A stretch of DNA of 64,000 nt from NCBI GenBank assembly GCA_034002925.1, contig JAVEZP010000002.1, positions 16,655-80,654 of the forward strand, given 5' to 3'. The position numbers were made by a program, and so were the translations under genes. The stretch's first letter is position 1, and each line of letters starts with the position of its first letter. This DNA is from Patescibacteria group bacterium (GTDB lineage: Bacteria > Patescibacteriota > Patescibacteriia > Patescibacteriales > UBA12465). The notes below the pieces were generated by a model, which was given only the letters and a program-made list of their open reading frames with translations, was not told the DNA's origin and did no database searches. This document shows, one piece after another, positions 24,343-36,776 of this stretch.

Positions 24343-24380
24343 AATAAAAATCAGGCTTTTACAGCCTGATTTTGTTTTTT
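24343..24380. terminator. Bidirectional hairpin terminator; left edge of the island
   Basis: Stem atcaggct/agcctgat (8 bp) with loop tttac, an A-run before it and tttgtttttt after it. Confidence 0.8.
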
Positions 24381-24417
24381 ACTCGCCTGGAGAGACAGTT
24401 TTCGAACGTGGGTGGCT
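24381..24417 (-). repeat. Unit A: most degraded tRNA 3'-end-like fragment
   Basis: actcgcctggagagacagttttcgaacgtgggtggct follows a terminator hairpin, the same layout as at tRNA-Gln. The similarity (CTGTC.., TTCGAA) is weak. Confidence 0.3.
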
Positions 24418-24440
24418 AATAATTAATGATATTTTGACTC

Positions 24441-25421
24441 TTAATTCTTCATTTGTCCAACCTCCAAATCTACTAAATTATCTAGATTAAAATTTTCTCT
24501 TTCCGTTTCACATTCTTTTCTCTCTTTATCCGGATAGTTACTGCAGTTGGGATAACGGGCTACAAATTGCACCAAATAAACATTATTTTCTATTACTGTT
24601 GTATAGGCATATTGCGTATAGACAGATCCCGCCGCGCCCTCGCTAGAAGCACCTATGCAATATTTCTGGCCGTTTATTTCCTTTTTACTTATTCGAAGAG
24701 GTAAGCTAGATTCTAGAGGGGTTTCATTACACTCTATTTCACCATTTTCTACCCAAGATTCTAACTTGGGGTATTCTTCGGCTTTAAATATGTTCGAACT
24801 ATAATTTTGAAATGAAATATAACTAGCCTTAAAACTATCTGGTAAATTTGATTCTATATTCCCTTCTTCGGTATATAAATATTTAACCCCTATCACCTTG
24901 ATTGTGCCTAAAGTTTTATAAATATCGCTTTCTTCGTTAACCAGCTCGCCGCTAATTTCTATTTTTTTCCCCTTTCTTATCTTATTAACTATATTATTTT
25001 TATCATCACTGGGCGCTTGCAGGCGATAATAATCACCATCACTATTCTTAATACCAAAGACGCATAAATCATTATGGGGGATATTCTCATCTTTTAAAGG
25101 CAGGCAAACAAATTCTCCGGAGACAATAAATAAATCTTTATTTTCTAAATTCGCTGCTTCATTTATGGATAAATTTCCACAATCACAAAGTATTTTTTTA
25201 CCACACAAAGTTGACACGCCACCGCAAGGAACTTGAACATTATTATATTCTTTACATCCAAATAACCCTTCACAATTTTTTAAGTTAAATTCGCAATATC
25301 CTTTTTCGGGATATACTTTAAAATCGTTTTTACACTTATTTGAAATTAAAAAAAATAAAGCAGTAATAATGAATAGCAAAGCAGCGAGAGAGTAGATTAG
25401 AATTTTGAATTCCTTTTTCAT
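24441..25421 (-). CDS. Membrane-anchored Cys-rich extracellular hypothetical protein
   Basis: 326 aa with an N-terminal TM segment, then a Cys-rich stretch (CKNDFKVYPEKGYCEFNLKNCEGLFGCKEYNNVQVPCGGVSTLCGKKILCDC). Confidence 0.65.
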   Translation of the reverse strand: MKKEFKILIYSLAALLFIITALFFLISNKCKNDFKVYPEKGYCEFNLKNCEGLFGCKEYNNVQVPCGGVSTLCGKKILCDCGNLSINEAANLENKDLFIVSGEFVCLPLKDENIPHNDLCVFGIKNSDGDYYRLQAPSDDKNNIVNKIRKGKKIEISGELVNEESDIYKTLGTIKVIGVKYLYTEEGNIESNLPDSFKASYISFQNYSSNIFKAEEYPKLESWVENGEIECNETPLESSLPLRISKKEINGQKYCIGASSEGAAGSVYTQYAYTTVIENNVYLVQFVARYPNCSNYPDKERKECETERENFNLDNLVDLEVGQMKN

Positions 25422-25446
25422 ACTATTTTAAATATTAACTATTTAT

Positions 25447-25474
25447 ATTATAACATACCCTCTCCTTCTATCAA
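25447..25474 (-). promoter_or_regulatory. Candidate promoter of the cassette-1 gene
   Basis: The minus strand reads TTGATA, then 16 nt, then TATAAT, about 25 nt upstream of ATG 25421. Confidence 0.45.
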
Positions 25475-25492
25475 ATAATATAAATCATGAAT

Positions 25493-25711
25493 AAAAATAA
25501 GCTATTATTAGCTTATTTTTATTATTCGCTTGGTGGTTAGGATTTGGCCACACAAAGCTCAAGTCTCGCTTGTCTACACTCACTAACTGGCCTCGCGGTG
25601 CGTCACTTCGTTCCGCACATCGCTCCGACTTTCTCATCCTGGGCGCGAAGTGCGCAGGCACTTCGCTTCCCCTCACTCATTCAAAAAATCCAGCTTACAC
25701 TGGATTTTTTT
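25493..25711. ncRNA. GC-rich structured segment bracketed by two terminator-type hairpins; candidate ncRNA, family unknown
   Basis: Hairpins at 25493-25520 and 25683-25711, both with A/T runs. The core has a perfect 9-bp hairpin gcgaagtgc-gcag-gcacttcgc and a second copy of CACTTCG that could pair alternatively. Only overlapping spurious-looking ORFs occur on both strands. Confidence 0.35.
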
Positions 25712-25743
25712 CATTCGCTCGGGGTCGCGGACGATGTTCGAAC
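25712..25743 (-). repeat. Unit D: tRNA-Gln 3'-end-like fragment
   Basis: cattcGCTCGGGGtcgcggacgatgTTCGAAC sits next to a terminator hairpin. GCTCGGGG is identical to tRNA-Gln positions 36653-36660 (plus-strand reading). Confidence 0.5.
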
Positions 25744-25752
25744 TTTTTATAA

Positions 25753-26421
25753 CTATCTATTAGGAAATTTAAAATAATTCCAAGTTATGAACTGATTATA
25801 AACTGCGTCGCGAGCTTCTGTTTGACGACTTGCAATAAACTTACCATCATAAGATTGACCGTGAAAACTAGCAGGACCATAAAAAACATACTCGTTATTA
25901 GAAGCAATAATTATATACTGCCCATTGGCGGGGCTGGCTCCACCTTCTTGTATGTTAGCCTCTCTAGCTATTTCAAATTTTTTTGAATCATCCCTACTTA
26001 AAACATATAGGCGAAATATTGCAAGAAAACAAGAAGGACATTTTTCTGCAACGTCTTGTTTTTCTTGATAACTAACTTTAACAGGAAGCCCGAAGACAAG
26101 ATCGGTGGAATGGAATTCAATATTATTATCTAAATACATTGAACCTCTCTCCGATTTTACAACTGCCTCGTTCCAGGCGCTTGGTAGAGTAATTTGGAAT
26201 CGATAATCATCATTTTTATAGACAAAATTATTATTAACCACCTCATTTTGAGACTCTGGCGTATCTTTTTGAAGGCCCGCCTTGTCCACATTAGCGGTTT
26301 CAGTTATCTGCGGACTACTTAGAGAATCATCGTTAGAGAGATTTTTATAACTATTAGAAGAACATGCCGACAAAAAAATTACAAAAATAAACAAAAAAAC
26401 TAAAGAAAGTGTTTTTTTCAT
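25753..26421 (-). CDS. Lipoprotein, hypothetical
   Basis: 222 aa with a signal peptide and lipobox (VIFLSAC). Confidence 0.7.
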   Translation of the reverse strand: MKKTLSLVFLFIFVIFLSACSSNSYKNLSNDDSLSSPQITETANVDKAGLQKDTPESQNEVVNNNFVYKNDDYRFQITLPSAWNEAVVKSERGSMYLDNNIEFHSTDLVFGLPVKVSYQEKQDVAEKCPSCFLAIFRLYVLSRDDSKKFEIAREANIQEGGASPANGQYIIIASNNEYVFYGPASFHGQSYDGKFIASRQTEARDAVYNQFITWNYFKFPNR

Positions 26422-26512
26422 ATTTTTAAATTAATTATTACACTACAAATATAACACAAAAAAAATAATTTCAAACATTTTCAGACTTTTCATTAGGGGG
26501 CGATAAAATTAT

Positions 26513-26570
26513 AAAAAAACAGGCCTTTTACACCCTGCTAATTCAACGATGCTTGGGGACAGGGATTCGG
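26513..26570 (-). repeat. Unit E: tRNA-Gln 3'-end-like fragment, best-conserved copy
   Basis: 26550-26570 tgcttggggacagggattcgg against tRNA-Gln 36652-36672 ggctcggggacagggactcga gives 17/21 identical by manual alignment. An A-run and weak hairpin precede it. Confidence 0.6.
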
Positions 26571-26679
26571 CTACACGTCGTCGCGTAAAATGGCTACCCC
26601 GTATAACCTCGTAAACGCGGCACGGGGTTCCGCCATCACGCGACTCACGTAAAATTATCACGCGGCTGCGCCACGTGAT

Positions 26680-27335
26680 AAAAGTAATCTACCACCAGAC
26701 TGAGGTCTGGTGGCTTTGTGTTTGCCGGCCATTCCGGCAAAGACGGTTTTAGTGGTTTAATTTTAATTTAAGGAATTATCTTGTCAAATAGAGATGGTTG
26801 ATCTATCTCATTGTGATGATCTTGGTGTCTGACATATCTCTTGATTATATCTTCATCAATACCTATGCTGGAAACAAAATAACCTCTTGCCCAAAGAGAA
26901 TGTTTTTCATAGAGACCATGGTGTCTTTTTATTTTCTTTTTGAGCCAAGCAGAAGACTTGCCTTTGATTATTTGCATAACATAGAAAACTGAATCCCTAG
27001 GTGTAATGAGAAGACATAAGTGGATATGATCTTCTTGAATACTTAACTCTATTATTTCCCAATGTTTCCATTTACAAACTGATTCAAATATTCGACGTAA
27101 TTCATCTTTGATTTTATTGGTATTTAATACCTTACCTCGAAACTTAGGTGTCCAGACTAAATGGAGCTTTAAATCATAGAAACAATGTGATAATGTACGA
27201 ATGGTGCGCTTTCTTGTTTGATGCATATTATTATAGCACCACTAAAACCAGTCCTGCCGGACTGCTTTTAGTATACAGCGTCGCTTTCAAACGTACACAC
27301 CCCAGCTGTGCTGGTGGTTTATAGAATAACAAAAA
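26680..27335 (-). mobile_element. IS200/IS605-family element (tnpA only) with hairpin-rich arms; boundaries approximate
   Basis: Intact tnpA flanked by hairpins at 26692-26713 (ccaccagac/gtctggtgg), 26722-26740, 27249-27264 (cagtcc/ggactg) and 27302-27314, plus the inverted 12-mer GGTTTTAGTGGT (26745-56) / ACCACTAAAACC (27238-49). Confidence 0.65.
26768..27226 (-). CDS. tnpA: IS200/IS605-family Y1 (HUH) transposase TnpA
   Basis: 152 aa with YDLKLHLVWTPKFR, the HUH motif EDHIHLCLL and the catalytic Tyr context LWARGYFVSS. Confidence 0.9.
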   Translation of the reverse strand: MHQTRKRTIRTLSHCFYDLKLHLVWTPKFRGKVLNTNKIKDELRRIFESVCKWKHWEIIELSIQEDHIHLCLLITPRDSVFYVMQIIKGKSSAWLKKKIKRHHGLYEKHSLWARGYFVSSIGIDEDIIKRYVRHQDHHNEIDQPSLFDKIIP

Positions 27336-27468
27336 ATACCTCAATTTTGAGATATTTTTTGTAGTTTACTACGTCTTTTGATGAGAACGGGTCTCTCGAA
27401 AGACGCACTAGGTTGGCTCCGAGGCTAGGACGCGAACGGGTCTCTCGAACCACGCCCGTCCCTCGGTA
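27329..27468 (-). repeat. Unit B: terminator-like hairpin plus tRNA 3'-end-like minihelix
   Basis: Shares two blocks with unit C (43/52 and 31/36 identical by hand). The minus strand ends ..CCTCGGAGCCAAC. It has an internal direct repeat gaacgggtctctcgaa x2. Confidence 0.65.
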
Positions 27469-27473
27469 AAAAA

Positions 27474-28418
27474 CTATTCAGTAGCCATAATAATCTCTCC
27501 ACACTTATCTTTATACTGATCTACAATATCAAAAATATCATCTATTTTAGGTTCTCTAGCAGTAATTTCTTCTCCGTTTTTAAATGTCGCTGTAACTTCC
27601 AAAGCATGTGTTTGCATAACTGATTCTATTTCACATTCGGCAATAGCTTGTTTTATTAAATTCCAGTTAGTAATATTTGTAAATGCATAATCTTCTGCTT
27701 TTACAATTAATTCGTCTACGTCATGATCAAATATTTTCTGTTGAACATCCTCGGGAAATATTTTCTTAATATCTTTGGTATAATCAGCTCCATCACCTGG
27801 AGCTTCATATGAAAATTTATTTATATCATAATATGACAACTCATTTGGATAATCTATTTTAACTGGACCAGATGAACCACTGACTGTAACTAACTTATTA
27901 TTTTCAATCACATATTCTCCGCAATAGGCCCAAATATATAATGGGAATAATTCTTGGTCAGGTTTTAAATTTTTAATTGTACAAAAATTATAGCTATCAT
28001 CTCGATTTTTCCAGCTAAAATGTTTTTGTATTAATAAATATCTTTCTATGGCTTGCTCTCTTGGTGTTGGGTTGTAGGCTATATTTATTTTATCTGTTAC
28101 TTGGGTTGAAGCGTTAACACAAAATTGTTTTGAATGACAACTTAAATAATTTGAGACTACCGTTTCGCCACAAAGAGAGCAAGTGTCTTGATGTTCCAAG
28201 CACTCAACTTCATTTAACTTTTCACAAGCATCTTCATCGATAAAATCATTATTTTGCAAAGATAAAAGTATTCCAGGGATTATACCTACTAAAATCAGTA
28301 CTACTCCTAAAATCAAATAGATTTTATTAAATTTATTTTGTTTTTTCTTTTGGGTAAAATAGATGATCAACCCAATTGTCCCCAAGATTAAAAATATTAG
28401 TGATGTTGGTATTGGCAT
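27474..28418 (-). CDS. Membrane-anchored Cys-rich extracellular hypothetical protein
   Basis: 314 aa with two N-terminal TM helices, then DACEKLNEVECLEHQDTCSLCGETVVSNYLSCHSKQFC. Confidence 0.65.
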   Translation of the reverse strand: MPIPTSLIFLILGTIGLIIYFTQKKKQNKFNKIYLILGVVLILVGIIPGILLSLQNNDFIDEDACEKLNEVECLEHQDTCSLCGETVVSNYLSCHSKQFCVNASTQVTDKINIAYNPTPREQAIERYLLIQKHFSWKNRDDSYNFCTIKNLKPDQELFPLYIWAYCGEYVIENNKLVTVSGSSGPVKIDYPNELSYYDINKFSYEAPGDGADYTKDIKKIFPEDVQQKIFDHDVDELIVKAEDYAFTNITNWNLIKQAIAECEIESVMQTHALEVTATFKNGEEITAREPKIDDIFDIVDQYKDKCGEIIMATE

Positions 28419-28446
28419 AAAGTTATATTAATAAATTTTTTAATCT

Positions 28447-28644
28447 CTAATTAATCTTAGTGTTATTATTCGTAAAAACATAAAAAAATAGAGCATTTAT
28501 TATAACAAACAACAAAGAAAAAATAATAGAAAATGCTATAAAACTTTCTTCTAAACTTTTTTGTAATGCCCAAATATTTATACCAATAAATATTATTCCA
28601 ATTATTGCATTGATAGAAATGTTTATAAAAATTATTTTTTTCAT
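28447..28644 (-). CDS. Small two-helix membrane protein
   Basis: 65 aa, hydrophobic, lying in an operon-like series. Confidence 0.5.
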   Translation of the reverse strand: MKKIIFINISINAIIGIIFIGINIWALQKSLEESFIAFSIIFSLLFVIINALFFYVFTNNNTKIN

Positions 28645-28661
28645 AAGTATATTTTTAATCT

Positions 28662-30098
28662 CTATAACTCATCATAATAATTTACAATACCAGAATTTTC
28701 CCCTGACACAACTTCCATATTACCAGTAATGTATACATTTAATCTACTTGTGTTTGTCGCATTAATTACCGCCTCCTCTGCTATAAATTTATCCATTTCA
28801 ACCCAGCAATCACCTGAATCTATTATCAAATTCTTAGCCGAACCTGTTAAATTAATGATACCACCATTAGCATCTAATTTTAATGTATCTATAACCTTAA
28901 CATTACCCTTTATATTATTAAACCTATGAGTCAATTTTATTTCTAAATTATCAACTTCTAAACTTCCCAATTTAACATTAGCACCTTCATTTTTTATTTT
29001 TTCAACATCTGGCATGGTTATTTCTATCACTAGGTGCTTGGTTCCTGCTCGAAACAAAATATTTCTGTTCTCTACGATCCAAGTATCAGTATTAAAAAAT
29101 GTTTCAAAGCTCGATCTTTTAATATTTAAAGTATTATCAACTTTTTCAAAGTCTAATCCGATCTGATCATACTCACTACCTTTAATTAAAATGTCAAAAT
29201 CATCACCTTGCTTAATTATTATGTCATCAAATTCAACATAAGGTGATATATAGATGTTTTTAAAATCTTTAATATCAATATGACTCTCCTGAATGTTGGC
29301 CTTCATATCTGCTTCTTTTACTTTAAACCCAGAATTCAAATAAATAAATGATAAAAGAAAAATAATTAAAAAAATACCAAGATAGATAAGCAAACGCAAT
29401 GATATTTTCTTGTTTAAATATTTCTTGCTAGGAAACAATGAAATTATTCCTAAATTAATAATAAATATTAATGGTATCGCCAAAATACAAAAGATAGAAA
29501 TGAGCATTGGATAATAACCCCAAAATCCAATAACATCTATAATTCTAAAATCAGCCATTATGTATCTAAGCCAATGGCTTGAGGGGTTGAAAAATAAATA
29601 TAAAAATATAACTGTGGATGTCAATATTCCCAAAGATCCAGCACCTAAAAATATTCCTCCAAATATTTTTTTAAAAGCTAGAACTATCTTTGAATTTGGA
29701 TATTTTTTAAATTGCTCTGATGTGCCCCTGATAACTAATCCAATTAGACCACCCGCCAAACTTAAAACAATAAAAGGGAAAAATATACCCAACAAAGCTT
29801 CAAAACTGAAAGATGGCTTGGGCAAATATCCATGATTTGAATATGTTAATAAATAGTTAATTACTACAACTGCTATATTATTAACTAAAGTCCCGATTAA
29901 TAAAATTGGTAAAAACTCATAGCTTCTATTTTTGTCTTGGACTAAAATCAATAAAATACCTGTCAAAAAAGGTAATAAAAGCATAATAAAAATAACTGGT
30001 AGATAGCCAAACATAATATTATCTAATCCACCAGGTAATATATTTAATACTGTAGTAACAATTATAGTAAAAATAAAAATGTAAAAAAGTTTTTTCAT
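28662..30098 (-). CDS. Polytopic membrane protein with a C-terminal beta-helix/GIN-like (DUF2807/DUF4097-like) domain
   Basis: 478 aa with about 7 TM helices. The C-terminal segment is repetitive (GNVKVIDTLKLDANGGIINLTGSAKNLIIDSGD...). The domain call is tentative. Confidence 0.55.
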   Translation of the reverse strand: MKKLFYIFIFTIIVTTVLNILPGGLDNIMFGYLPVIFIMLLLPFLTGILLILVQDKNRSYEFLPILLIGTLVNNIAVVVINYLLTYSNHGYLPKPSFSFEALLGIFFPFIVLSLAGGLIGLVIRGTSEQFKKYPNSKIVLAFKKIFGGIFLGAGSLGILTSTVIFLYLFFNPSSHWLRYIMADFRIIDVIGFWGYYPMLISIFCILAIPLIFIINLGIISLFPSKKYLNKKISLRLLIYLGIFLIIFLLSFIYLNSGFKVKEADMKANIQESHIDIKDFKNIYISPYVEFDDIIIKQGDDFDILIKGSEYDQIGLDFEKVDNTLNIKRSSFETFFNTDTWIVENRNILFRAGTKHLVIEITMPDVEKIKNEGANVKLGSLEVDNLEIKLTHRFNNIKGNVKVIDTLKLDANGGIINLTGSAKNLIIDSGDCWVEMDKFIAEEAVINATNTSRLNVYITGNMEVVSGENSGIVNYYDEL

Positions 30099-30104
30099 AA
30101 AAAT

Positions 30105-30749
30105 TTAATCCCAAGTATCTAAACCGCTTCCAGATAAAGGAATTACATCACCTAAATATTTTGGTTTTGAATTAAAAGTAATATTTAACCAAGCTTTAAC
30201 TTTAGCTAAGACCTCTCTCCTGTTTCTAGTATCCTCACCATAGTATCTTTGCAAATCAGCGCTGACTCCACAACTATCTATTTCTAATTTATCAGCTATA
30301 TATAAAGCTCTTGGCAGATGGAAATCTTGTGTTACAACAATCAGTGAATCGGCTTGAAATATTTCTTTAGCTCTATAAAGACTATCGTAGGTATCAAATC
30401 CTGCGTGATCTAAAAAAATATCTTCTGGTTTTATATTATTTTCCAACAAATATTCTTTAGCAGTATTTACCTCATCATACTCCACTTGCCCATGATCCCC
30501 ACTAACTAAAATTTTATCCACCTTACCTTTGTTATATAACTCAATGGCTGTTTTGACTCTATCTTTAAAAATATCACTCAAACTTCCATTATTCCAAACT
30601 TTAGCGCCAAGAACTAAGGCAGCTTGCTTGTGGGTATTATCCATATCACATAAATTATTACCAATTCTATTAATATTGATATTTATCGCATAAATAGAAC
30701 CTATCAAAACTATTATGCAAATAATAAATATAGTTAATATTTTTTTCAT
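30105..30749 (-). CDS. SanA/YdcF (DUF218) family protein
   Basis: Contains ALVLGAKVWNNGSLSDIFKDRV...ILVSGDHGQVEYDEVNTAKEYL...FLDHAGFDTYDSLYRA. The ATG at 30749 is preferred because the track start at 30761 is a TTG. Confidence 0.75.
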   Translation of the reverse strand: MKKILTIFIICIIVLIGSIYAINININRIGNNLCDMDNTHKQAALVLGAKVWNNGSLSDIFKDRVKTAIELYNKGKVDKILVSGDHGQVEYDEVNTAKEYLLENNIKPEDIFLDHAGFDTYDSLYRAKEIFQADSLIVVTQDFHLPRALYIADKLEIDSCGVSADLQRYYGEDTRNRREVLAKVKAWLNITFNSKPKYLGDVIPLSGSGLDTWD

Positions 30750-30754
30750 AAACT

Positions 30755-31645
30755 TTACCAATAAATTACATTTTCATTATCTGCCCAATAAACATATTCA
30801 TGTCTATTTTTAGACAATCTATTATTCTGCTTAACAATTTCACCTTTTTCTAAATCAAAAATAAACAAAGTCCAATATTCATTTTTTGTATCATAATCAA
30901 CAGATTCAATCTGTGCCTCAATAGCCAACCTGCTACTGTCAGGAGAAAAAACTATATGGTTAAAATCAAGTAATTTGGTTTCTTTAAAACGTGTAATAAA
31001 AAACCCATCATTAATATCATCTAAATTTAATAAACGCAAACTTAAATTTTGGTTGTTACAACTATGATTAATTTCCATAACAGATGGATTTTTAACACAT
31101 TCACTTTCTAAAAAGACCACCTTCTCACCGTCAGACGATTTAGCAACTAACTTACCTTTAGATGGTAGTTCCACTGTTTTTCTTGTCCTGAAATCTAAAT
31201 AATAATTAGTAAACGGTCCATTATATAATTTTGAATCTTGCGGATAATACCAAGCTGACCCAACTAAGGTATCCCTAGATAAAGGTGTAAGTATTGGATC
31301 TATATAGTATGTGTAAAAACCCAAAGAATCTTTAATCTCTCCATTTTGCATTATTCTAGTCCAGCCAACACCAAAATCAGTATCTTCTCCTATGTGATCA
31401 AAAGAAAATATATCATCATATTTATCTATGCTAAAAATAGATGGTTGGTTAAAACTTAAAATCTGTCCTGATAAATTATTAAACTCATTATCAATATCAT
31501 CAAGCTTATTTTGTATATGACAATTAAAATATGGCGGTTGTATCAAACAAGCATCACCACGTTTAAACCAGTAGATAAAAATAGCAACTATTGCTAATAT
31601 TATTATGGCTAAAATTATACAAATTTTTCTTTTCATATTGTTCAT
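30755..31645 (-). CDS. Membrane-anchored hypothetical protein, beta-rich ectodomain
   Basis: 296 aa with an N-terminal TM segment. No family recognised. Confidence 0.6.
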   Translation of the reverse strand: MNNMKRKICIILAIIILAIVAIFIYWFKRGDACLIQPPYFNCHIQNKLDDIDNEFNNLSGQILSFNQPSIFSIDKYDDIFSFDHIGEDTDFGVGWTRIMQNGEIKDSLGFYTYYIDPILTPLSRDTLVGSAWYYPQDSKLYNGPFTNYYLDFRTRKTVELPSKGKLVAKSSDGEKVVFLESECVKNPSVMEINHSCNNQNLSLRLLNLDDINDGFFITRFKETKLLDFNHIVFSPDSSRLAIEAQIESVDYDTKNEYWTLFIFDLEKGEIVKQNNRLSKNRHEYVYWADNENVIYW

Positions 31646-31666
31646 TATACCTTATTTAAGACAAAC

Positions 31667-31692
31667 AAAAAACACCTCTAGAGGTGTTTTTT
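31667..31692. terminator. Bidirectional hairpin inside cassette 4
   Basis: aaaaaaCACCTCTAGAGGTGtttttt is a perfect 14-nt palindrome flanked by an A-run and a T-run. Confidence 0.7.
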
Positions 31693-31703
31693 GAAAATAT
31701 ATA

Positions 31704-32759
31704 CTATTTCTTCCAAACATTCTTTGCAAACTTCCATCCATATTTTGCAATAATAAGCATAATAAACAGATAGATAATATATTGTAGAATTAGGAATAAC
31801 AATGATACTAGATTAATAGTAATATCTTGTGCAACCGTATTAATATCTCTAACAAAAGATTTTACTGCTACTTTCCATGATTCTTTTAAATTTTGCCCAT
31901 CAATAAACTTATTTTCTACCACACGAACATTAAAATATGTATATTCTAACCTATCAAGCTGTTCGGCTTTAGATCTATTAATTCTTTCCAATTGTGCATT
32001 AATATTTATCTTCTCTTGAGTTAATCTTTCAATAATTCTAATTTTACTATCAATGATTTTAGCTAGACTTTCTACGTCTTGAGTCCTAGTAGCTAAATCT
32101 GTAATATCATCATAAGCACTAACTGCATTATTTAATGTTTCTTCAATAGAAGCCATCTTCTTTTCTAATATTTCAACTTCACTGGTGTAATCGTCAATTA
32201 ATCTTTTAATGGTATATGTATTTTCATTTAATTCTTTAGGATCTAGTTCCTCGATAATAGTTAATATCTCATCAACGCTATCGTGCTTAACTTTAAAATT
32301 ATAGCTACAGCTTCTTTCGTATTCATTAGCATTTTCAAAAATTACATCTTCGCGTGATTTCAGGTCAGCAACTTTTTTGCAAGTATCTTCTAAATGGCGG
32401 GTTTCAATATTTGCACCATACTCAGTAACTTCGAAATCTTCAGCATCATCACCAGTTGTAGCTGTATTATCCATTGGGGGCATGGACGGTTCTGGGGCTA
32501 TCACATTTCTTATGGATAAACCAACCGAACCGCTAGATTCACCATAACCCATATCTTTCATAGCGTATTCTTCATCATCCATATCAAACACGGCATCCTG
32601 CGTGACCACACTTCTACCATTAGACCCAGGAGTTAAAGATTTAAAAGAAGATCCGATTAAACGAAAGGCTAAAGTAATTACAATAATTACCACTAAGGCT
32701 AACCCCGCAATTTTAAAAATATTGGCTGGTTTTAAATTGAGGTTGTTTGGAAATTGCAT
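31704..32759 (-). CDS. DUF4349-like protein: N-terminal TM, coiled coil, C-terminal TM
   Basis: 351 aa whose architecture and segments (TYTIKRLIDDYTSEVEILEKKM.., YTYFNVRVVE, C-terminal TM) resemble DUF4349 (recalled). Confidence 0.5.
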   Translation of the reverse strand: MQFPNNLNLKPANIFKIAGLALVVIIVITLAFRLIGSSFKSLTPGSNGRSVVTQDAVFDMDDEEYAMKDMGYGESSGSVGLSIRNVIAPEPSMPPMDNTATTGDDAEDFEVTEYGANIETRHLEDTCKKVADLKSREDVIFENANEYERSCSYNFKVKHDSVDEILTIIEELDPKELNENTYTIKRLIDDYTSEVEILEKKMASIEETLNNAVSAYDDITDLATRTQDVESLAKIIDSKIRIIERLTQEKININAQLERINRSKAEQLDRLEYTYFNVRVVENKFIDGQNLKESWKVAVKSFVRDINTVAQDITINLVSLLFLILQYIIYLFIMLIIAKYGWKFAKNVWKK

Positions 32760-32855
32760 ATGAGTTATTTAAGAGTCAATTATTAATTGATAAATGTATA
32801 TTTTATATTATATCAGATTTTGATAAAAAATAACAAAAAAATAACATTTTTTAAC

Positions 32856-33087
32856 CAAACAAAAAATACCTCTAAATTGAGATATTTTTTGTAACCTACT
32901 ACGCATTTCAGTTCGAATCCCTTTCCCAGTAGGAAATGAAAGTTTCGAACTAAAAATTGTTTTTGGCTAATATTAGATGCGTATGGGTCTCTCGAAACGC
33001 GCACTATGTTGGCTCCGGCGAACATATTCGAACTGGAGGTCGGCCTCTAAACACTATTTTCATTCTCCGTGTTTAATATTAGCCAAA
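32856..33087 (-). repeat. Unit C: composite junction with a terminator-like hairpin, T-loop fragments and a tRNA-Gln flank/3'-end-like copy inside a 14-bp inverted repeat
   Basis: The head matches unit B. 32955-33020 aligns with the tRNA-Gln downstream flank plus 3' end (tttttggctaat.., ..gttggctcc). A perfect inverted repeat TTTGGCTAATATTA (32962-75) / TAATATTAGCCAAA (33074-87) is present. Confidence 0.6.
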
Positions 33088-33160
33088 TTATTTCATAAAT
33101 ATTTTTATTAAAAAAGTTCGAATCCGACTACCGGTTTTGATTTAACATTATTCACAATAT

Positions 33161-33349
33161 TTAAAGACTTAATCTTTTAAAAGCATCTAGTGCGTCGACT
33201 ACACAATTTTTTGGCACATTTTTATATACAAAATATCCAGAATTAGTTGGAATAACAAAATTTAGTGAATTATTTTCGCTTATCTTGTCAGAAGAAAAAC
33301 TTTCTAAAACTTTTTCTACATCCATATCTTTTTGAATATTTTTTAACAT
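33161..33349 (-). CDS. Small hypothetical protein
   Basis: 62 aa ORF, last in the cassette-5 gene series. No family recognised. Confidence 0.4.
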   Translation of the reverse strand: MLKNIQKDMDVEKVLESFSSDKISENNSLNFVIPTNSGYFVYKNVPKNCVVDALDAFKRLSL

Positions 33350-33374
33350 TCCAATATTTTTTTCAAATTTTTTA

Positions 33375-33788
33375 TCATTTTTTAAAAATATTTAATAATT
33401 TCGACGCCACTTCTTTAGGTCTTAAATCATAATTAAGTAAATCATTGATACCCAGCCATTCTATCTCATGAATACCTTCATAACCAGAATTTACATCATA
33501 TTCAGGACCATCTCCTGTGCCAAGTTCTCCGGATACAATATCACAAAAATAAAAATGCTCTAATTGTTTAATCTCCCCCCTGTCAAATCTCTCGGATGTA
33601 AAGTTTTCAATTACTTTTATCTCTACGCCGAGTTCCTCTTTGCATTCCCTTTTCATGGCGGTTTCTAAATCCTCGCCTTGTTCAACTCCGCCACCAGGAA
33701 AAACAAAATAGACTAAATCTTGTTTTGATCTTTTAATTGTTAAAAGCTTGTCATCTTTGATAATAATAGCACGAACTCTGTTTAGCAT
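33375..33788 (-). CDS. Nudix hydrolase
   Basis: Nudix box GGGVEQGEDLETAMKRECKEELGVE. It is a paralog of the N-terminus of the adjacent 522-aa protein. Confidence 0.85.
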   Translation of the reverse strand: MLNRVRAIIIKDDKLLTIKRSKQDLVYFVFPGGGVEQGEDLETAMKRECKEELGVEIKVIENFTSERFDRGEIKQLEHFYFCDIVSGELGTGDGPEYDVNSGYEGIHEIEWLGINDLLNYDLRPKEVASKLLNIFKK

Positions 33789-33811
33789 AAATGATATTGA
33801 TAATTTTTTTA

Positions 33812-33847
33812 TAAAAAAGGAGAAGACTGTTTTAAAAATCTTCTCCT
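33812..33847 (-). terminator. Intrinsic terminator after the 522-aa gene
   Basis: Stem aggagaaga/tcttctcct (9 bp) with a 12-nt loop, then TTTTTT on the minus strand. Confidence 0.65.
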
Positions 33848-33857
33848 ATTGCTAACG

Positions 33858-35426
33858 TTAAAAAACGAGTGTCTGTTCAAATTTGAGAATATTCTCAGAA
33901 TAACCGCCATCTGAATTATTAAAGTTGATATCGGCTATTTTACTAACCATCTCAGCACCTCTACTTTTTTTTTCCTGATCTTTCTGTCTTGTTTTCTCTG
34001 TGGCTTCAGATAGAGGAATGTCTAGTTCTGCAGAAGCACGACTACATCTTACTTCAAAAGAAGCGTCCAAATAAACGATTTGAAATTTTATTCCAAAAAG
34101 CAATTTAAGAAATGCCGGGGTGTATGGTTCGTGTAAACTCTCAATAGTAAAATCCTGAACATAGTAATGTGTTTTGCAAAAATGCAAAAATTCCATCGCA
34201 ATATTCTCAGGTGTGTCATCCTCGCCACGCCGCTTCAAAATTTCCACAAAGTAACCAAGTTTTAAACGATAATACCCATTATTTTTGCGAAAATGTTCCG
34301 CAAAACCGCTTTTACCGCATTCACTCAAACCACCAAAACCGATAATACTCCTTACGCTACTTAATATTTCAGACAAAGACAACTTAGATATTTTATTAAT
34401 TAATAATCTTAATTTGTTTTGCGTCTCACAAATTGAGCTATTAACCTTTATTTTTTCTGTCGCATCATTATTGAAATAATAATCCATAGCTTCTTTGAGT
34501 AATTCTTGATACATCAAATAAAACTCATTTTCTTCTGTCGTAAAACAACTTGACTCATTCTGAAGCAATGAAATATATGGAGTAATCGACTTTTGATATT
34601 CCACATCTGGCTGTAGAAGAATATTATGCTCATCTTCTATACAATAATTAAGATTTTCAGTAAAAAACGAGTCAACGTCATTCATAGAATCAATGAGATT
34701 CGACCCTGTCCTTATTGATATAGTTGCTGCACACACAGCTTTAAACATCAACGTTCCTCGGTCTAAAATCACAGTTGAATCTACAAATTCTGAATTTCTC
34801 TTATTCAAAGATTCAATCATAATAGCAAGAAAATCTTCAATTTTTACCTCTTTAAACCACCAATCAAACATACCGTGGGTTCCTAGTTTTGGCCACCGCA
34901 CAGAGTACTCCGTCAATGATTTTGTAAAGCTTAACTGATCACTACCAAAAAAATGAAGCAACTTTATTTGCTGGCTCTTTCCAACACCATCAACGCCATT
35001 GATAGCAATTAGCATTCTAGATTTCTCTAGTAGTTTTTTCTTTACCTCTTCTGGCTGAATGCTTTTTAATGAAAAATCATCCAGTGGAACCCATTCAAGT
35101 GCATATAAACCTTCGTAATTTGTCTCATTCTGAAATTCTGGGCCGGACCCTGTTCCAAGAATACCGCCAATAATTTCACAAAAATAGAAGTATTCACACT
35201 GTTTCTCATTGGATTCACCCAATTCATAACGTGCAAACAAATTGCCAACTTGAACTTCAACGCCAAGTTCTTCTCTACATTCTCTAACCAGGGCTGTTTC
35301 CTTGTTTTTATCGGTATTTTCGACACCGCCACCTGGAAAGACCCAATACTCTCTTCCTTTCTTCATTCTATGGATGAGTAAAATTGCATTACCATTTTTA
35401 ATTATGGCCCTAACTCTTTCTTTCAT
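33858..35426 (-). CDS. Fusion protein: N-terminal Nudix hydrolase plus two P-loop (nucleoside/nucleotide-kinase-like) modules
   Basis: Nudix box GGGVENTDKNKETALVRECREELGVE. Walker A 1 is INGVDGVGKS (Tmk/dNK-like) and Walker A 2 is GFGGLSECGKS. Confidence 0.75.
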   Translation of the reverse strand: MKERVRAIIKNGNAILLIHRMKKGREYWVFPGGGVENTDKNKETALVRECREELGVEVQVGNLFARYELGESNEKQCEYFYFCEIIGGILGTGSGPEFQNETNYEGLYALEWVPLDDFSLKSIQPEEVKKKLLEKSRMLIAINGVDGVGKSQQIKLLHFFGSDQLSFTKSLTEYSVRWPKLGTHGMFDWWFKEVKIEDFLAIMIESLNKRNSEFVDSTVILDRGTLMFKAVCAATISIRTGSNLIDSMNDVDSFFTENLNYCIEDEHNILLQPDVEYQKSITPYISLLQNESSCFTTEENEFYLMYQELLKEAMDYYFNNDATEKIKVNSSICETQNKLRLLINKISKLSLSEILSSVRSIIGFGGLSECGKSGFAEHFRKNNGYYRLKLGYFVEILKRRGEDDTPENIAMEFLHFCKTHYYVQDFTIESLHEPYTPAFLKLLFGIKFQIVYLDASFEVRCSRASAELDIPLSEATEKTRQKDQEKKSRGAEMVSKIADINFNNSDGGYSENILKFEQTLVF

Positions 35427-35509
35427 AATATTCTTCTTTAATTGTTTATGTACTGTTTAACAATATTTTTATTGCTATTTTTGGATAATACCACAAGAAC
35501 TCAAAAATG

Positions 35510-36430
35510 TCAAAATATTTTTCCGGCAAATTTTATGCCATTTTCAATTACAACATTTAATTCTTCCTGACTTAAATTAGCCTTTTCTATTTCTTTTTTT
35601 ATATTAGTATTAAATGTTATTGGATCATCAGTGTTTATTGTTACAGAAATACCTAAAGATAAGGCTTTCTTTATTGGGTTAATAGTCCCCCAGTTAACAA
35701 CCCCCAATATCTCGTTACTAATCGGACACATATCTAAACATATTCCATTTTTTTTGATAAATTTAATTGCTTCAGTAGACTCCAGCAGAGCTATTCCGTG
35801 AGCCACCCTATCTGGCGTTAACTTCTTTAATATTTTAAGATTAACTAAATCGCTAGTAAATTCTCCTAAATGAATAATAATTTTCTTTTTAAACTTACTT
35901 CTTACTTTTAACAAAACCTTGTAGTACTTTTCAAATTTATCAAAATCGTCTTCATTTAAAGTTATATCGATTCCAGAAATAGAATCTATATTTTTCTTAT
36001 CAAACAGCGCCACCAAACTCTTTTCTATTTCTTGTTCAGATTTCGTCAAATCAATAGCGGCTATGTAAGAAATAGACTTTCCATCATAACCAATAAGCGC
36101 ATCGTCGTATATTTCTTTAGCATGAGCAAGATTATTAACACTTTTCCATCTATCAAGATGCAAACTTAGACGTAAATCAATATGCGTTATATCGTATTTT
36201 TTCATTTCTTCTACTGTCTGCTGGGCGACTTTCTTAAAATTATCCAAGGTAAAGTGTTTGCTATCTGGGACAGGCAATGTTTTCCTTAAAAAATCTAATC
36301 TATCCTGAGGTTTCAATTTCAAAAATTCCTTATTACTAAAAATACTATAAAAATCATTAAGCTTCTCTGGGTTTACTATTTTTACAAGTCTAAGAACAGA
36401 CTCATAATGCTGGTGCAAAATATAATACAT
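35510..36430 (-). CDS. Adenosine/AMP-deaminase-family amidohydrolase
   Basis: ADA signature set: LHQH (N-terminal HxH), IHLGEF (HxGE), RVAHGI, MCPISN (CPxSN) and INTDDP. Confidence 0.75.
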   Translation of the reverse strand: MYYILHQHYESVLRLVKIVNPEKLNDFYSIFSNKEFLKLKPQDRLDFLRKTLPVPDSKHFTLDNFKKVAQQTVEEMKKYDITHIDLRLSLHLDRWKSVNNLAHAKEIYDDALIGYDGKSISYIAAIDLTKSEQEIEKSLVALFDKKNIDSISGIDITLNEDDFDKFEKYYKVLLKVRSKFKKKIIIHLGEFTSDLVNLKILKKLTPDRVAHGIALLESTEAIKFIKKNGICLDMCPISNEILGVVNWGTINPIKKALSLGISVTINTDDPITFNTNIKKEIEKANLSQEELNVVIENGIKFAGKIF

Positions 36431-36563
36431 ATTTTTATTTACTTCTTATGTTTCTTATAATCTCATAAAGACATCCTTAAGTCAAAATAAAAACATATAA
36501 CTATTAATCGGATTCGAACTAATAATATCCTTTATTTACGCCTATTTCAACTCATTTGACTCC

Positions 36564-36592
36564 AACAAAAAAACTCAGCATAAACTGAGTTT
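36564..36592 (-). terminator. Intrinsic terminator of tRNA-Gln
   Basis: Stem aaactcag/ctgagttt (8 bp) with loop cataaa, then a T-run on the minus strand. Confidence 0.7.
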
Positions 36593-36650
36593 CTTTGTTT
36601 TTTGGCTAATTTTACGACAAATATGTCGGTCTACAGCACAAAAAATGTGT

Positions 36651-36724
36651 TGGCTCGGGGACAGGGACTCGAACCCCGATAGCCAGGACCAGAACCTGGA
36701 GTCCTACCATTAGACGATCCCCGA
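36651..36724 (-). tRNA. tRNA-Gln (anticodon CTG), CCA encoded
   Basis: The minus strand reads TCGGGGA TC GTCT AATGGTA GGAC T CCAGG TTCTGGT CCTGG CTAT CGGGG TTCGAGT CCCTG TCCCCGA G CCA, a full cloverleaf with U1-A72 and G73. Confidence 0.95.
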
Positions 36725-36776
36725 ATAAAAATAGTTTAAATTAATTAAACTATTCGTTTGTATTATAAAGACTTGC

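What the first reader, a model, noticed from the sequence alone, without database searches (positions are those of the whole stretch)
33375..36430. Island-borne nucleotide-modifying cluster: ADA-like deaminase, Nudix-kinase-kinase fusion and a paralogous stand-alone Nudix
Three consecutive minus-strand genes make up the cluster. The first is an adenosine-deaminase-family protein with a complete catalytic signature (HxH, HxGE, HG, CPxSN, TDDP). The second is a 522-aa fusion of a Nudix domain with two separate Walker-A modules (INGVDGVGKS and GFGGLSECGKS). The third is a 137-aa Nudix that is clearly a paralog of the fusion's N-terminus (VRAII..L.I.R....Y.VFPGGGVE......A..REC.EELGVE shared). I do not recognise this domain combination as a described system. 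Its position in a mobile-looking cassette next to a tRNA suggests two readings. It could be accessory nucleoside/nucleotide salvage, which is plausible for an auxotrophic small-genome organism. It could also be a nucleotide-pool-manipulating conflict system; deaminase- and kinase-containing anti-phage nucleotide-depletion systems are precedents. Each gene seems separately transcribed, with a terminator at 33812-33847.
Basis: partly seen in the sequence, partly recalled or inferred. Interest (0 to 1): 0.6.

Follow-up and report, generated by a model that had tools for sequence, protein, structure and literature searches.

The report
Deletion remnant of a conserved nucleotide-modifying operon
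The three genes are real and do travel together, but they are what a 4.8-kb deletion left of a nine-gene operon of unknown product, carried as strain-variable cargo next to a tRNA gene; the operon's four-part enzyme core recurs, uncharacterised, in several bacterial and archaeal phyla.

Summary
All three minus-strand ORFs, their motifs, the Nudix paralogy (47% identity, E 2e-37) and the hairpin at 33818-33847 are present.

The three genes are not a complete system. In same-species contigs (98.7% identical) and other CPR bacteria they open a nine-gene operon:
- adenosine-deaminase-like protein (ADA)
- Nudix-B
- two-P-loop di-kinase
- Nudix-A
- APH-fold kinase
- Pol-beta nucleotidyltransferase (NTase)
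- O-carbamoyltransferase
- HAD phosphatase
- DHQ-synthase-like enzyme

In the window, a deletion across an ~8-nt microhomology removed five of these. A 62-aa DHQS tail remains at 33161-33349.

The operon lies in a 12.3-kb strain-variable region (24378-36648) that begins at the 3' end of tRNA-Gln. Sister strains carry no cluster, the full cluster, or other cargo there.

The core (Nudix, di-kinase, NTase, APH-fold kinase) recurs in CPR, DPANN archaea, actinomycetes and Clostridia, sometimes fused into one polypeptide. No Pfam family, PADLOC system or paper describes it.

ADA is a lineage-specific add-on. Its nearest outside relatives sit in kinase-ADA-kinase-Ham1 operons.

My best reading is a biosynthetic operon for a modified nucleotide. 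The window retains only the deaminate / phosphorylate / pyrophosphohydrolyse sub-module, which is still under purifying selection. The product is unknown, and defence is neither shown nor excluded.

The parts
36651..36724 (-). tRNA-Gln(CUG). Its 3' end is the proximal boundary of the strain-variable region.
   Evidence: ARAGORN and Rfam tRNA at 55 bits. Homology with cluster-free sister contigs L096 and L101 stops at 36649.
36571..36592 (.). Hairpin with T-runs between the tRNA and the ADA gene; terminator-like.
   Evidence: Scan (reported on the + strand). Read on the minus strand, the hairpin is also followed by a T-run.
35510..36430 (-). Short (306 aa) adenosine-deaminase-family protein with all metal and catalytic motifs. 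It is an accessory, lineage-specific member of the operon.
   Evidence: Strong ADA matches occur in only 4 of 14 CPR species-level loci, with weak ADA-like neighbours in 2 more. Relatives at 33-37% identity lie in kinase-ADA-kinase-Ham1 operons.
35022..35426 (-). Nudix-B domain of the 522-aa fusion (residues 1-135). REx2EE is intact. The box has a one-residue insertion relative to Nudix-A.
   Evidence: Pfam NUDIX 3.3e-14; alignment to Nudix-A. It is a separate 136-138 aa gene ending 1 nt before the kinase gene in L001, L004 and L014.
34377..35018 (-). Kinase module K1 (about residues 137-350). It has a thymidylate-kinase-like P-loop (NGVDGVGKSQQ) and a DRG motif.
   Evidence: Invariant D146, G149, K150, D222 and R223. 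pLDDT is about 90. Foldseek matches dTMP kinases 4nzy, 5h70 and 2wwg; P-loop match to TMPK.
33861..34355 (-). Kinase module K2 (about residues 358-522). Its fold is adenylate-kinase/AdkA-like, with P-loop GGLSECGKS and a lid carrying R460, R463, K482, D483 and K486.
   Evidence: Invariant residues. Profile hit to Sulfolobus AdkA-like 3lw7, E 1.6e-4; Foldseek.
33818..33847 (-). Intrinsic-terminator-like hairpin between the fusion gene and Nudix-A.
   Evidence: 11-bp stem, 4 GC pairs, followed by TTTTTAT.
33375..33788 (-). Nudix-A, a 137-aa stand-alone Nudix hydrolase with a canonical Nudix box. It is an old paralogue of Nudix-B.
   Evidence: Pfam NUDIX 7e-18; 47% identical to the fusion N-terminus. 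A and B types are both present in L001, L014, L020 and L023.
33355..33377 (-). Deletion junction. The first codons of the APH-fold kinase gene are joined to the 3' part of the DHQS-like gene across an ~8-nt microhomology (AAAATTT[G/A]).
   Evidence: blastn shows the jump L007 11817 to 16632; three-way alignment. The same junction appears against same-species L097 and L100.
33161..33349 (-). 62-aa ORF that is the C-terminal remnant of the DHQ-synthase-like gene, so a pseudogene fragment.
   Evidence: 90.7% identical to L007 16632-16997 and 93% to L097 and L100. The L007 gene is DHQ_synthase plus DHQS_C.
33012..33160 (-). Distal end of the block shared with L007-L010. It ends beside a tRNA-3'-half-like sequence (GTTCGAATATGTTCGCCGGAGCCAACA).
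24378..36648 (.). 12.3-kb strain-variable region (island) at tRNA-Gln that carries the cluster plus unrelated cargo.
   Evidence: Contigs with an identical GreA carry no cluster (L096, L101), the full cluster (L097, L100) or other genes (L098, L099) at this site. 12 of the window's 13 GTTCGA[AG] motifs fall in or at the edge of this region (24378-36750), p = 3e-8.
26768..27226 (-). IS200-like Y1 transposase inside the variable region.
   Evidence: Pfam Y1_Tnp 3.2e-31.

Best explanation
**Shown**
- The three genes are the surviving left end of a conserved operon. In sister strains of the same population it reads: ADA, Nudix-B/di-kinase, Nudix-A, APH-fold kinase, Pol-beta NTase, NodU/TobZ-type O-carbamoyltransferase, HAD phosphatase, DHQ-synthase-like enzyme.
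- The operon is cargo of a strain-variable region that starts at the 3' end of tRNA-Gln.
- In the window, a 4.8-kb deletion across an ~8-nt microhomology removed the last five genes.
- The core (Nudix, di-kinase, NTase, APH-fold kinase) is conserved across CPR, DPANN, actinomycetes and Clostridia. In some lineages it is fused into one protein.

**Inferred**
- The full operon builds a modified nucleotide, or a nucleotide-linked sugar or cyclitol.
- The proposed steps are: phosphorylation of a hydroxyl by the APH-fold kinase; NAD-dependent phosphate elimination or ring remodelling by the DHQS-like enzyme (an SDR plus a His-phosphatase in other phyla); O-carbamoylation; dephosphorylation; and nucleotidyl transfer.
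- The TMPK-like and AK-like di-kinase would raise the (analogue) NMP to NDP/NTP. The two Nudix enzymes would return NTP to NMP, as control or self-protection.
- Where present, ADA would convert the adenine form to the hypoxanthine form.
- The window copy can no longer make the product. It keeps an autonomous sub-module (adenine-nucleotide deamination, NMP phosphorylation, (d)ITP-type pyrophosphohydrolysis) that is still selectively maintained.
For: **Co-occurrence and gene order**
- Searches give individual contexts.
- An HMM census of 96 sequences (95 loci plus the window) is.

**Deletion**
-.

**Same-site polymorphism among contigs with an identical GreA**
-.

**Rosetta-stone fusions**
- K1-K2-NTase in Nonomuraea (621 aa) and K1-K2-NTase-Nudix in Clostridia (809 aa).
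- Nudix-APH-fold fusions.
- A Nudix-DHQS fusion, P0050.

**Fold assignments**
- The 344-aa partner has the APH/protein-kinase-like fold: pLDDT 93.6; Foldseek matches APH(3'), AmiN, NahK and MTR kinase; invariant K28, E38, D187, N192 and D201.
- K1 is TMPK-like and K2 is AdkA-like.

**Accessory enzymes**
-.

**Selection**
- dN/dS is 0.09-0.21 for the three window genes. This equals the 0.14-0.22 seen for the same three genes between intact clusters.

**Relatives of the ADA**
- They sit with two P-loop kinases and an active Ham1 ITPase.

**Literature precedents**
- An ADA-family enzyme deaminates dAMP, with kinases giving dITP.
- A Nudix detoxifies the products of an ATP deaminase.
Against: - No product or activity is known for any member.
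- The Pol-beta NTase and the APH-fold kinase could equally be small-molecule-inactivating enzymes.
- Actinomycete and clostridial versions lack the DHQS-like enzyme, so the chemistry may differ between lineages.
- The minimal core (L023, L026, DPANN) has no ring-remodelling enzyme at all.
- ADA is missing from most clusters, so any role for inosine nucleotides is not general.
- The deletion variant is documented only in this window's source. L104 ends at the junction.
- Purifying selection may only reflect a recent deletion.
Confidence: 0.6

Rival explanations
1. Accessory purine-nucleotide salvage and house-cleaning. ADA converts adenosine or AMP to inosine or IMP, the di-kinase re-phosphorylates scavenged NMPs, and the Nudix enzymes remove (d)ITP or other non-canonical NTPs. 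The trio works independently of the deleted genes, which is useful to an auxotrophic CPR cell.
For: - The three genes stay intact with dN/dS of 0.09-0.21 after their partners were lost.
- The kinase folds are NMP-kinase-like.
- The Nudix proteins' best equivalog-type similarities are to NTP pyrophosphatases, and both give weak Nudt16-like Pfam hits.
- The hosts are CPR and DPANN organisms with reduced genomes.
Against: - The genes are strain-variable, not core.
- The family is rare: 481 representatives at 50% identity among 1.84 billion proteins.
- The di-kinase and Nudix are tightly linked, and sometimes fused, to an NTase and an APH-fold kinase in all phyla. Simple salvage has no need for either.
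Confidence: 0.2
2. Anti-phage or conflict system acting on the nucleotide pool. It would work either by making an inosine-type or otherwise modified nucleotide as a signal or poison (Kongming- or Cad1-like logic), or by producing a chain-terminating analogue as viperins do.
For: - It sits in a tRNA-adjacent strain-variable region with alternative cargo.
- R-M systems lie next to the cluster in L007 and L014.
- The ADA matches the deaminase part of the PADLOC CARF_ADA model (3e-14), and the Nudix proteins match candidate PDC-S07.
- Precedents exist in Kongming and CAAD-Nudix.
Against: - There is no CARF, HAM1-sensor, SIR2 or other effector in the window or in related loci.
- The PADLOC hits are generic domain similarities.
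- The other cluster proteins hit no defence-system model; the NTase gives only weak generic cyclase and PDC matches.
- No di-kinase homologue was found in 50,697 phage records.
- Enrichment near defence genes was not tested statistically.
Confidence: 0.15
3. Antibiotic modification or self-resistance cassette. The APH-fold kinase and the Pol-beta NTase would inactivate an aminoglycoside-, aminocyclitol- or nucleoside-type compound. The P-loop kinases and Nudix enzymes would handle the nucleotide co-substrates.
For: - The best structural matches of the 344-aa partner are aminoglycoside, spectinomycin and amicoumacin phosphotransferases.
- The NTase belongs to the Pol-beta superfamily, which includes the ANT enzymes.
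- DHQS-like and TobZ-like enzymes occur in aminocyclitol pathways (established knowledge).
Against: - Sequence identity to APH enzymes is only 7-13%.
- No aminotransferase or glycosyltransferase is present in the CPR clusters.
- The window has lost both candidate resistance enzymes yet keeps the rest under selection.
Confidence: 0.05

Closest known systems
Kongming (KomABC) anti-phage system
   Same: A PF00962 adenosine-deaminase-family enzyme acts on adenine nucleotides (KomA: dAMP to dIMP). It works together with an NMP kinase and an NTP-pyrophosphatase-fold protein (bioRxiv 10.1101/2024.12.20.629578). The window has an ADA, two NMP-kinase-like modules and NTP-pyrophosphatase-type Nudix proteins.
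   Different: - There is no HAM1 (KomB) or SIR2 (KomC).
- The kinases here are host-encoded and fused.
- The pyrophosphatase is a Nudix with an intact catalytic box, not an inactivated sensor.
- The ADA is dispensable for most clusters.
- The trio belongs to a larger biosynthetic-looking operon.
CARF-adenosine deaminase (Cad1/CAAD) with its partner Nudix hydrolase in type III CRISPR loci
   Same: An ADA-family deaminase is paired with a Nudix that is reported to mitigate the toxicity of the deaminated nucleotide (PMC12993439). The window ADA aligns to the deaminase part of the PADLOC CARF_ADA model and to Cad1 structure 9c67.
   Different: - There is no CARF domain: the protein is 306 aa, and the match covers model positions 333-562 only.
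- No CRISPR-Cas genes appear among the annotated neighbours.
- No cOA signalling context is present.
Actinomycete operon Cytidylate_kin2 - short ADA - AAA_33 kinase - 315 aa - Ham1 (Frankia casuarinae L102; L103)
   Same: It holds the nearest outside relatives of the window ADA (33-37% identity, same ~308 aa length). It has the same logic of deaminase, two P-loop kinases and an NTP pyrophosphatase.
   Different: - The kinases are not orthologous to K1/K2; only generic P-loop similarity is seen.
- The pyrophosphatase is Ham1, not Nudix.
- The operon is itself uncharacterised.
Cyclitol and NDP-sugar pathways: sugar-phosphate cyclase, kinase, HAD phosphatase and nucleotidyltransferase, as in acarbose/validamycin C7-cyclitol or NDP-heptose biosynthesis (recalled from established knowledge)
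   Same: The full operon has the same enzyme classes: a DHQS-like enzyme, an anomeric-type APH-fold kinase, a HAD phosphatase, an NTase and a TobZ/NodU-type carbamoyltransferase.
   Different: - The NTase is Pol-beta type, not GlgC/GlmU type.
- The kinases belong to different families.
- No pseudo-glycosyltransferase or aminotransferase is present.
- The window retains none of these enzymes except a 62-aa DHQS stub.
Cordycepin-type nucleoside analogue biosynthesis (kinase, phosphohydrolase, oxidoreductase, with ADA interplay; recalled from established knowledge)
   Same: It combines nucleoside/nucleotide kinases, a phosphatase and an NAD-dependent redox enzyme, with an adenosine-deaminase connection.
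   Different: No homology to Cns1-3 was tested or seen. The resemblance is one of logic only.

Membership tests
Adenosine deaminase family (Pfam PF00962; amidohydrolase superfamily) | Score above the Pfam gathering threshold, plus the metal and catalytic motifs HxH, HxGE, HG and (T/S)DDP. | tested here: met
   80.3 bits against a cut-off of 27. H6/H8, HLGE, AHG, CPISN and NTDDP are read from the translation.
Canonical adenosine deaminase Add (NCBIfam TIGR01430 equivalog) | Whole-protein score at or above the 216.55-bit equivalog cut-off. | tested here: not met
   102.1 bits. The protein belongs to a separate ~306-310 aa clade.
Nudix hydrolases (PF00293) | Pfam threshold and the Nudix box Gx5Ex7REUxEExGU. 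| tested here: met
   Both proteins pass (53.5 and 65.4 bits against 21.1). Nudix-A has a canonical box. The fusion keeps REx2EExGV but has a one-residue insertion and D in place of the first E.
Thymidylate kinase / NMP kinase family | P-loop GxxGxGKS/T, DR(Y) motif, NMP-kinase fold, and the Pfam Thymidylate_kin threshold. | tested here: inconclusive
   The fold and motifs are met for K1. The window protein gives no Pfam kinase hit. PDB profile hits to TMPK cover only the P-loop, E about 0.07-0.1. The substrate is unknown.
Kongming (KomABC) | KomA-type ADA. | tested here: inconclusive
   A PF00962 protein is present. No KomA sequence was available for direct comparison.
Kongming (KomABC) | HAM1-like KomB (catalytic Asp replaced by His) and SIR2-like KomC encoded alongside. 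| tested here: not met
   Neither PF01725 nor a SIR2 family is among the Pfam hits for the neighbours scanned in the window or listed in related loci.
Cad1/CAAD CARF-adenosine deaminase | N-terminal CARF domain and a type III CRISPR-Cas neighbourhood. | tested here: not met
   The protein is 306 aa, and only model positions 333-562 of 605 are matched. The annotated neighbours are LysRS, GreA and cell-envelope and ribosomal genes, with no Cas.
tRNA-associated genomic island | It begins at the 3' end of a tRNA gene and is present or absent among close strains. | tested here: met
   Homology with L096, L101 and L098 ends at 36649-36653, and the tRNA ends at 36651. Contents differ among contigs with an identical GreA. 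The L001/L017 clusters follow tRNA-Trp.
tRNA-associated genomic island | An integrase, and clean direct repeats of the tRNA 3' end at the far boundary. | tested here: not met
   Among the island ORFs scanned, the only recombinase-type gene is an IS200-like Y1 transposase. Only degenerate tRNA-3'-like fragments are present.
Sugar-phosphate cyclase (DHQS-like) biosynthetic clusters | An intact DHQ_synthase/DHQS_C enzyme in the cluster. | tested here: not met
   It is intact in relatives (252.8 bits to aroB, below the 305-bit equivalog cut-off). In the window only a 62-aa C-terminal stub remains.
Known anti-phage defence systems (PADLOC-DB 2.0) | A system-level match of the component proteins. 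| tested here: not met
   Only generic domain hits were found: CARF_ADA deaminase part, PDC-S07 Nudix, and weak cyclase/NTase.

The most novel reading that the evidence does not exclude
The conserved core comprises a Nudix, a TMPK-like/AK-like di-kinase, a Pol-beta NTase and an APH-fold kinase. It comes with interchangeable ring-remodelling enzymes: DHQS-like plus HAD in CPR, and SDR plus His-phosphatase in actinomycetes and Clostridia.

This core could be an unrecognised, horizontally mobile pathway that manufactures a sugar-modified nucleotide, for example a 3'-modified or didehydro chain terminator, or a non-canonical signalling nucleotide. Such a product would be used in conflict with phages or neighbouring cells across CPR, DPANN, actinomycetes and Firmicutes.

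The ADA-bearing CPR variant would make the inosine form. The window would then be a natural 'half-system' mutant.
Probability: 0.2. Interest if true: 0.8.

Novelty: new variant of a known kind. Interest (0 to 1): 0.55.

Why it matters
If the operon makes a modified nucleotide, it would add a multi-enzyme, radical-SAM-independent route to the short list of nucleotide-analogue pathways (viperins, Kongming, Cad1). It would also place that route in CPR and DPANN, organisms thought to lack most nucleotide metabolism.

The work gives concrete handles:
- two families without any Pfam model (the di-kinase and the APH-fold partner);
- Rosetta-stone fusions that tie four activities together;
- a natural allelic series at a single tRNA-Gln site (empty, full operon, 4.8-kb deletion), which can be exploited for metagenome-level or heterologous tests.

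Even on the ordinary reading, the case shows that the 'three-gene system' seen by sequence reading is a truncated operon. That is a caution for similar calls.

Tried and rejected
**Complete three-gene system: rejected.** Relatives at 95-99% identity carry five more genes, and the window has a clean deletion junction.

**Assembly or frameshift artefact for the fusion: rejected.** The fused 522-aa form occurs in P0001 (17 member sequences), L016, L097, L100 and L104. A further fusion of only 45% identity (P0019) also exists.

**Known defence system: no support.**
- There is no system-level PADLOC match.
- Kongming and Cad1 membership fails on HAM1/SIR2 and on CARF.

**Phage origin: no support.** The di-kinase has no homologue in 50,697 phage records, and PHROGs hits are generic Nudix only.

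**Structured RNA or tRNA at the L007 boundary: nothing found**.

**Literature searches: nothing relevant**.
- Searched: DUF4254; DHQS with Nudix and carbamoyltransferase; Patescibacteria with ADA and Nudix; sugar-phosphate cyclase with NTase.
- The only lead was that DUF4254 is linked to heptosyltransferase genes.

**Relaxed selection after the deletion: not seen.** dN/dS equals that between intact clusters.

**Orthology between the Frankia-operon kinases and K1/K2: rejected**.

**Sequence profile of the 344-aa partner against PDB: no hit**. Only the fold comparison identified it.

Full report
**1. Observation**

- The ADA-like protein passes Pfam A_deaminase (80.3 bits) and shows HQH, HLGE, AHG, CPISN and NTDDP.
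- It reaches only 102 bits against the 216.55-bit cut-off of the adenosine-deaminase equivalog. It is a divergent short member, not a canonical Add.
- The 522-aa protein has Nudix at residues 5-125 and no Pfam hit beyond that.
- An AlphaFold2 model built on 39 homologues has pLDDT 83 overall and above 90 in the C-terminal 385 residues.
- Foldseek matches dTMP kinases, adenylate kinases and the Sulfolobus AdkA-like protein.
- A profile search ties K2 to 3lw7 (E 1.6e-4) and the K1 P-loop to thymidylate kinases.
- The two Nudix sequences are 47% identical (E 2e-37).
- The hairpin at 33847-33818 is a good terminator-like structure.
- Promoter-like matches are at chance level, so separate transcription is not shown.

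**2. The trio is the stump of a larger operon**

Homologues of the two-kinase module are mostly stand-alone ~385-aa proteins of Patescibacteria. Only the window lineage (P0001, P0002) and the more distant P0019 (45% identical) have it fused to Nudix. In L001, L004 and L014 the Nudix-B gene ends one nucleotide before the kinase gene, so the fusion is a read-through of two neighbours.

Genomic contexts show a recurrent order:
- (ADA)
- Nudix-B
- di-kinase
- Nudix-A
- a 337-349 aa protein with no Pfam family
- a 225-237 aa Pol-beta NTase (NTP_transf_2, 27.6 bits against 21)
- a NodU/TobZ-type carbamoyltransferase
- a HAD phosphatase
- a DHQ-synthase-like enzyme (252.8 bits to aroB, below the 305-bit cut-off)

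blastn of the 95%-identical loci L007-L010 against the window shows collinearity from 36667 to 33355. The match then jumps: L007 16632-16997 corresponds to window 33377-33012.

The three-way alignment places the junction in an ~8-nt microhomology (AAAATTT[G/A]). It lies between the first codons of the 344-aa gene and the 3' part of the DHQS-like gene. About 4.8 kb, holding five genes, is missing. The 62-aa ORF at 33161-33349 is the DHQS C-terminus.

**3. Population context**

Contigs encoding a GreA identical to the window's are 96.6-99% identical to the window upstream of tRNA-Gln. They differ immediately after it:
- L096 and L101 lose homology at 36649, and the tRNA ends at 36651. L096, the longer locus, resumes at 24377 after 1.8 kb of other genes.
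- L097 and L100 carry the full nine-gene operon at the same site, 98.7% identical up to the junction.
- L098 and L099 carry other cargo.

Window 24378-36648 is therefore a strain-variable region anchored on the tRNA.
- It contains an IS200-like transposase, and no integrase was found among the ORFs scanned.
- Twelve of the window's 13 copies of the T-loop-like heptamer GTTCGA[AG] lie in this region, one being the tRNA-Gln T-loop itself, nearly all in intergenic spacers (p = 3e-8).
- The same operon block sits in unrelated flanks in L007-L010, with no flanking protein shared with the window.
- In L001 and L017 it follows tRNA-Trp.
- The 'island-borne' part of the finding holds.

dN/dS of the three retained genes between the window and L007 or L016 is 0.09-0.21. 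For the same three genes between the intact clusters L007 and L016 it is 0.14-0.22. Either the deletion is recent or the trio has value on its own.

The deletion allele itself was seen only in this window. L104 carries the identical fusion protein in another sample, and that contig ends inside the junction microhomology.

**4. A conserved cross-phylum core**

A scan of one genome per GTDB species found the di-kinase in several groups:
- CPR: Falkowbacteria (L016, 95% identical), Parcubacteria, Berkelbacteria, Nomurabacteria, Saccharibacteria.
- DPANN archaea.
- Many actinomycetes.
- Clostridia.

An HMM census of all loci shows the di-kinase almost always beside a Nudix, the ~340-aa protein and the NTase.

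Accessory genes differ by lineage:
- In CPR: DHQS-like in 9 of 14 loci, HAD in 6, carbamoyltransferase in 4.
- Strong ADA matches occur in only 4 of the 14 CPR loci, with weak ADA-like neighbours in 2 more.
- Streptomyces and Clostridia instead have an SDR and a His-phosphatase.
- Streptomyces adds a PRTase and a GT9. DUF4254, the domain fused to its K2 kinase, is reported elsewhere as linked to heptosyltransferase genes.

Fusions link the parts:
- K1-K2-NTase in Nonomuraea (621 aa) and K1-K2-NTase-Nudix in Clostridia (809 aa).
- Nudix fused to the 340-aa protein.
- Nudix fused to DHQS, P0050.

The 340-aa protein was modelled at pLDDT 93.6.
- It has the APH/protein-kinase-like fold. The best matches are APH(3'), amicoumacin kinase, N-acetylhexosamine 1-kinase and MTR kinase.
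- Its invariant K28, E38, D187, N192 and D201 fit the kinase catalytic set.
- A sequence profile found nothing in PDB.

The di-kinase family is small: 481 representatives at E <= 1e-3 among 1.84 billion proteins.

**5. What the ADA adds**

The window ADA belongs to a ~306-310 aa clade.
- Its nearest relatives outside the operon (33-37% identity; Frankia, Pseudofrankia, Amycolatopsis and metagenomes) lie in an operon of Cytidylate_kin2, ADA, an AAA_33 kinase, a 315-aa protein and Ham1.
- That Ham1 keeps its catalytic Asp pair.
- Those kinases are not orthologous to K1/K2.

The same logic (deaminase, two P-loop kinases, NTP pyrophosphatase) has therefore been assembled twice.

The literature gives functional precedents:
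- KomA, a PF00962 protein, deaminates dAMP. With a dNMP kinase and NDK this yields dITP.
- CARF-ADA enzymes are reported to pair with a Nudix that mitigates metabolic toxicity.

By inference, the window ADA probably acts on, or upstream of, nucleotides. The Nudix proteins could then clear the triphosphate products.

**6. Interpretation**

Shown:
- the operon structure;
- the deletion;
- the island context;
- the cross-phylum core;
- the fold assignments.

Inferred:
- The intact operon remodels and activates a nucleoside, nucleotide or sugar-phosphate scaffold into a modified nucleotide or nucleotide-linked product.
- The window retains only the nucleotide-handling half.

Rival readings are kept:
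- autonomous salvage and house-cleaning (0.2);
- a defence or conflict system (0.15; compatible with the biosynthetic model if the product is antiviral);
- an antibiotic-modifying cassette (0.05).

Against a defence reading:
- No sensor or effector was found.
- No PADLOC system matched.
- No phage homologue of the di-kinase exists in the collection searched.
- R-M genes flank the cluster in L007 and L014, but enrichment was not tested.

**7. Comparison, novelty and score**

- Membership in Kongming fails because HAM1 and SIR2 are absent.
- Membership in Cad1/CAAD fails because CARF and CRISPR are absent.
- Membership in canonical Add fails on the equivalog cut-off.
- The resemblance to cyclitol/NDP-sugar pathways and to cordycepin-type logic is one of enzyme classes only.
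- No paper or family model describes the combination.

I rate it a new variant of a known kind: a nucleotide-modifying or biosynthetic operon built from known superfamilies, with an unknown product. Interest is 0.55. The window locus itself is a degraded copy. It does lead to an uncharacterised, widely scattered enzyme module and to a natural allelic series that makes the function testable.

Noticed in passing
window 24378-36750 (copies at 24401, 24792/24793, 25736/25737, 27444, 32911, 32944, 33027, 33116, 36513, 36668): The T-loop-like heptamer GTTCGA[AG] occurs 13 times in the window, and 12 of these are in the variable region, nearly all in spacers between gene modules (binomial p = 3e-8). 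Several copies extend into tRNA-3'-half-like sequence. They may be scars of repeated insertions at tRNA-Gln, or a cassette-boundary element.
   Followed up: partly
window 26768-27226 (-) and about 27420-27470: An IS200-like Y1 transposase (Pfam 3.2e-31) lies inside the variable region. A GC-rich palindromic stretch (CCGAGG...CCTCGG) sits just upstream, in otherwise 27-34% GC DNA.
   Followed up: partly
window 27474-32759: A run of low-GC (0.27-0.29) genes for predicted membrane or secreted proteins: DUF2807 adhesin-head-like (478 aa), DUF218, and a 351-aa protein with no Pfam or NCBIfam hit (read from its sequence as coiled-coil/transmembrane). They share the island with the cluster and are absent from sister strain L096.
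   Followed up: partly
L007 8300-8525: A ~200-nt GC-rich segment in AT-rich DNA ends in the last ~17 nt of tRNA-Gln (aatccttgtccccgagcca). No tRNA or Rfam family is detected. It may be a disrupted tRNA or an unknown structured element at the island boundary.
   Followed up: partly
L102 9218-13014; L103 9238-13027: An actinomycete operon reads Cytidylate_kin2, short ADA, AAA_33 kinase, a 315-317 aa protein with no confident family match, and Ham1 (catalytic Asp pair retained). It is an uncharacterised parallel to the deaminase, two-kinase, NTP-pyrophosphatase logic, and resembles Kongming without SIR2.
   Followed up: partly
L011 8886-16043 (Streptomyces angustmyceticus; same layout in L062-L095): A widely conserved Streptomyces cluster reads Nudix, K1 (214 aa), DUF4254/NTase/K2 (599 aa), PRTase, GT9 glycosyltransferase, an APH-fold protein (378 aa), SDR and His-phosphatase. 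It shares the core with the CPR operon, and its function is unknown.
   Followed up: partly
L001 6340-6411 and L017 8752-8823: In a Parcubacteria lineage whose cluster is only ~70% identical, the operon again starts directly downstream of a tRNA gene (tRNA-Trp).
   Followed up: partly
P0150, P0159 (407-409 aa); P0144, P0145, P0149 (471-479 aa): The APH-fold kinase occurs fused to an XRE-type HTH domain in some CPR contigs and to a Nudix domain in others.
   Followed up: no
L007 13536-15173: The operon's carbamoyltransferase matches PHROG 1601 ('Nol-like carbamoyltransferase', a phage auxiliary metabolic gene) over its full length at E 3.7e-126.
   Followed up: no
L104 (3292 bp, sample SRR25572339): A contig from another sample encodes the identical fusion protein. 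It ends 10 nt after the Nudix-A stop, inside the deletion-junction microhomology, as expected if full and deleted alleles coexist there.
   Followed up: no
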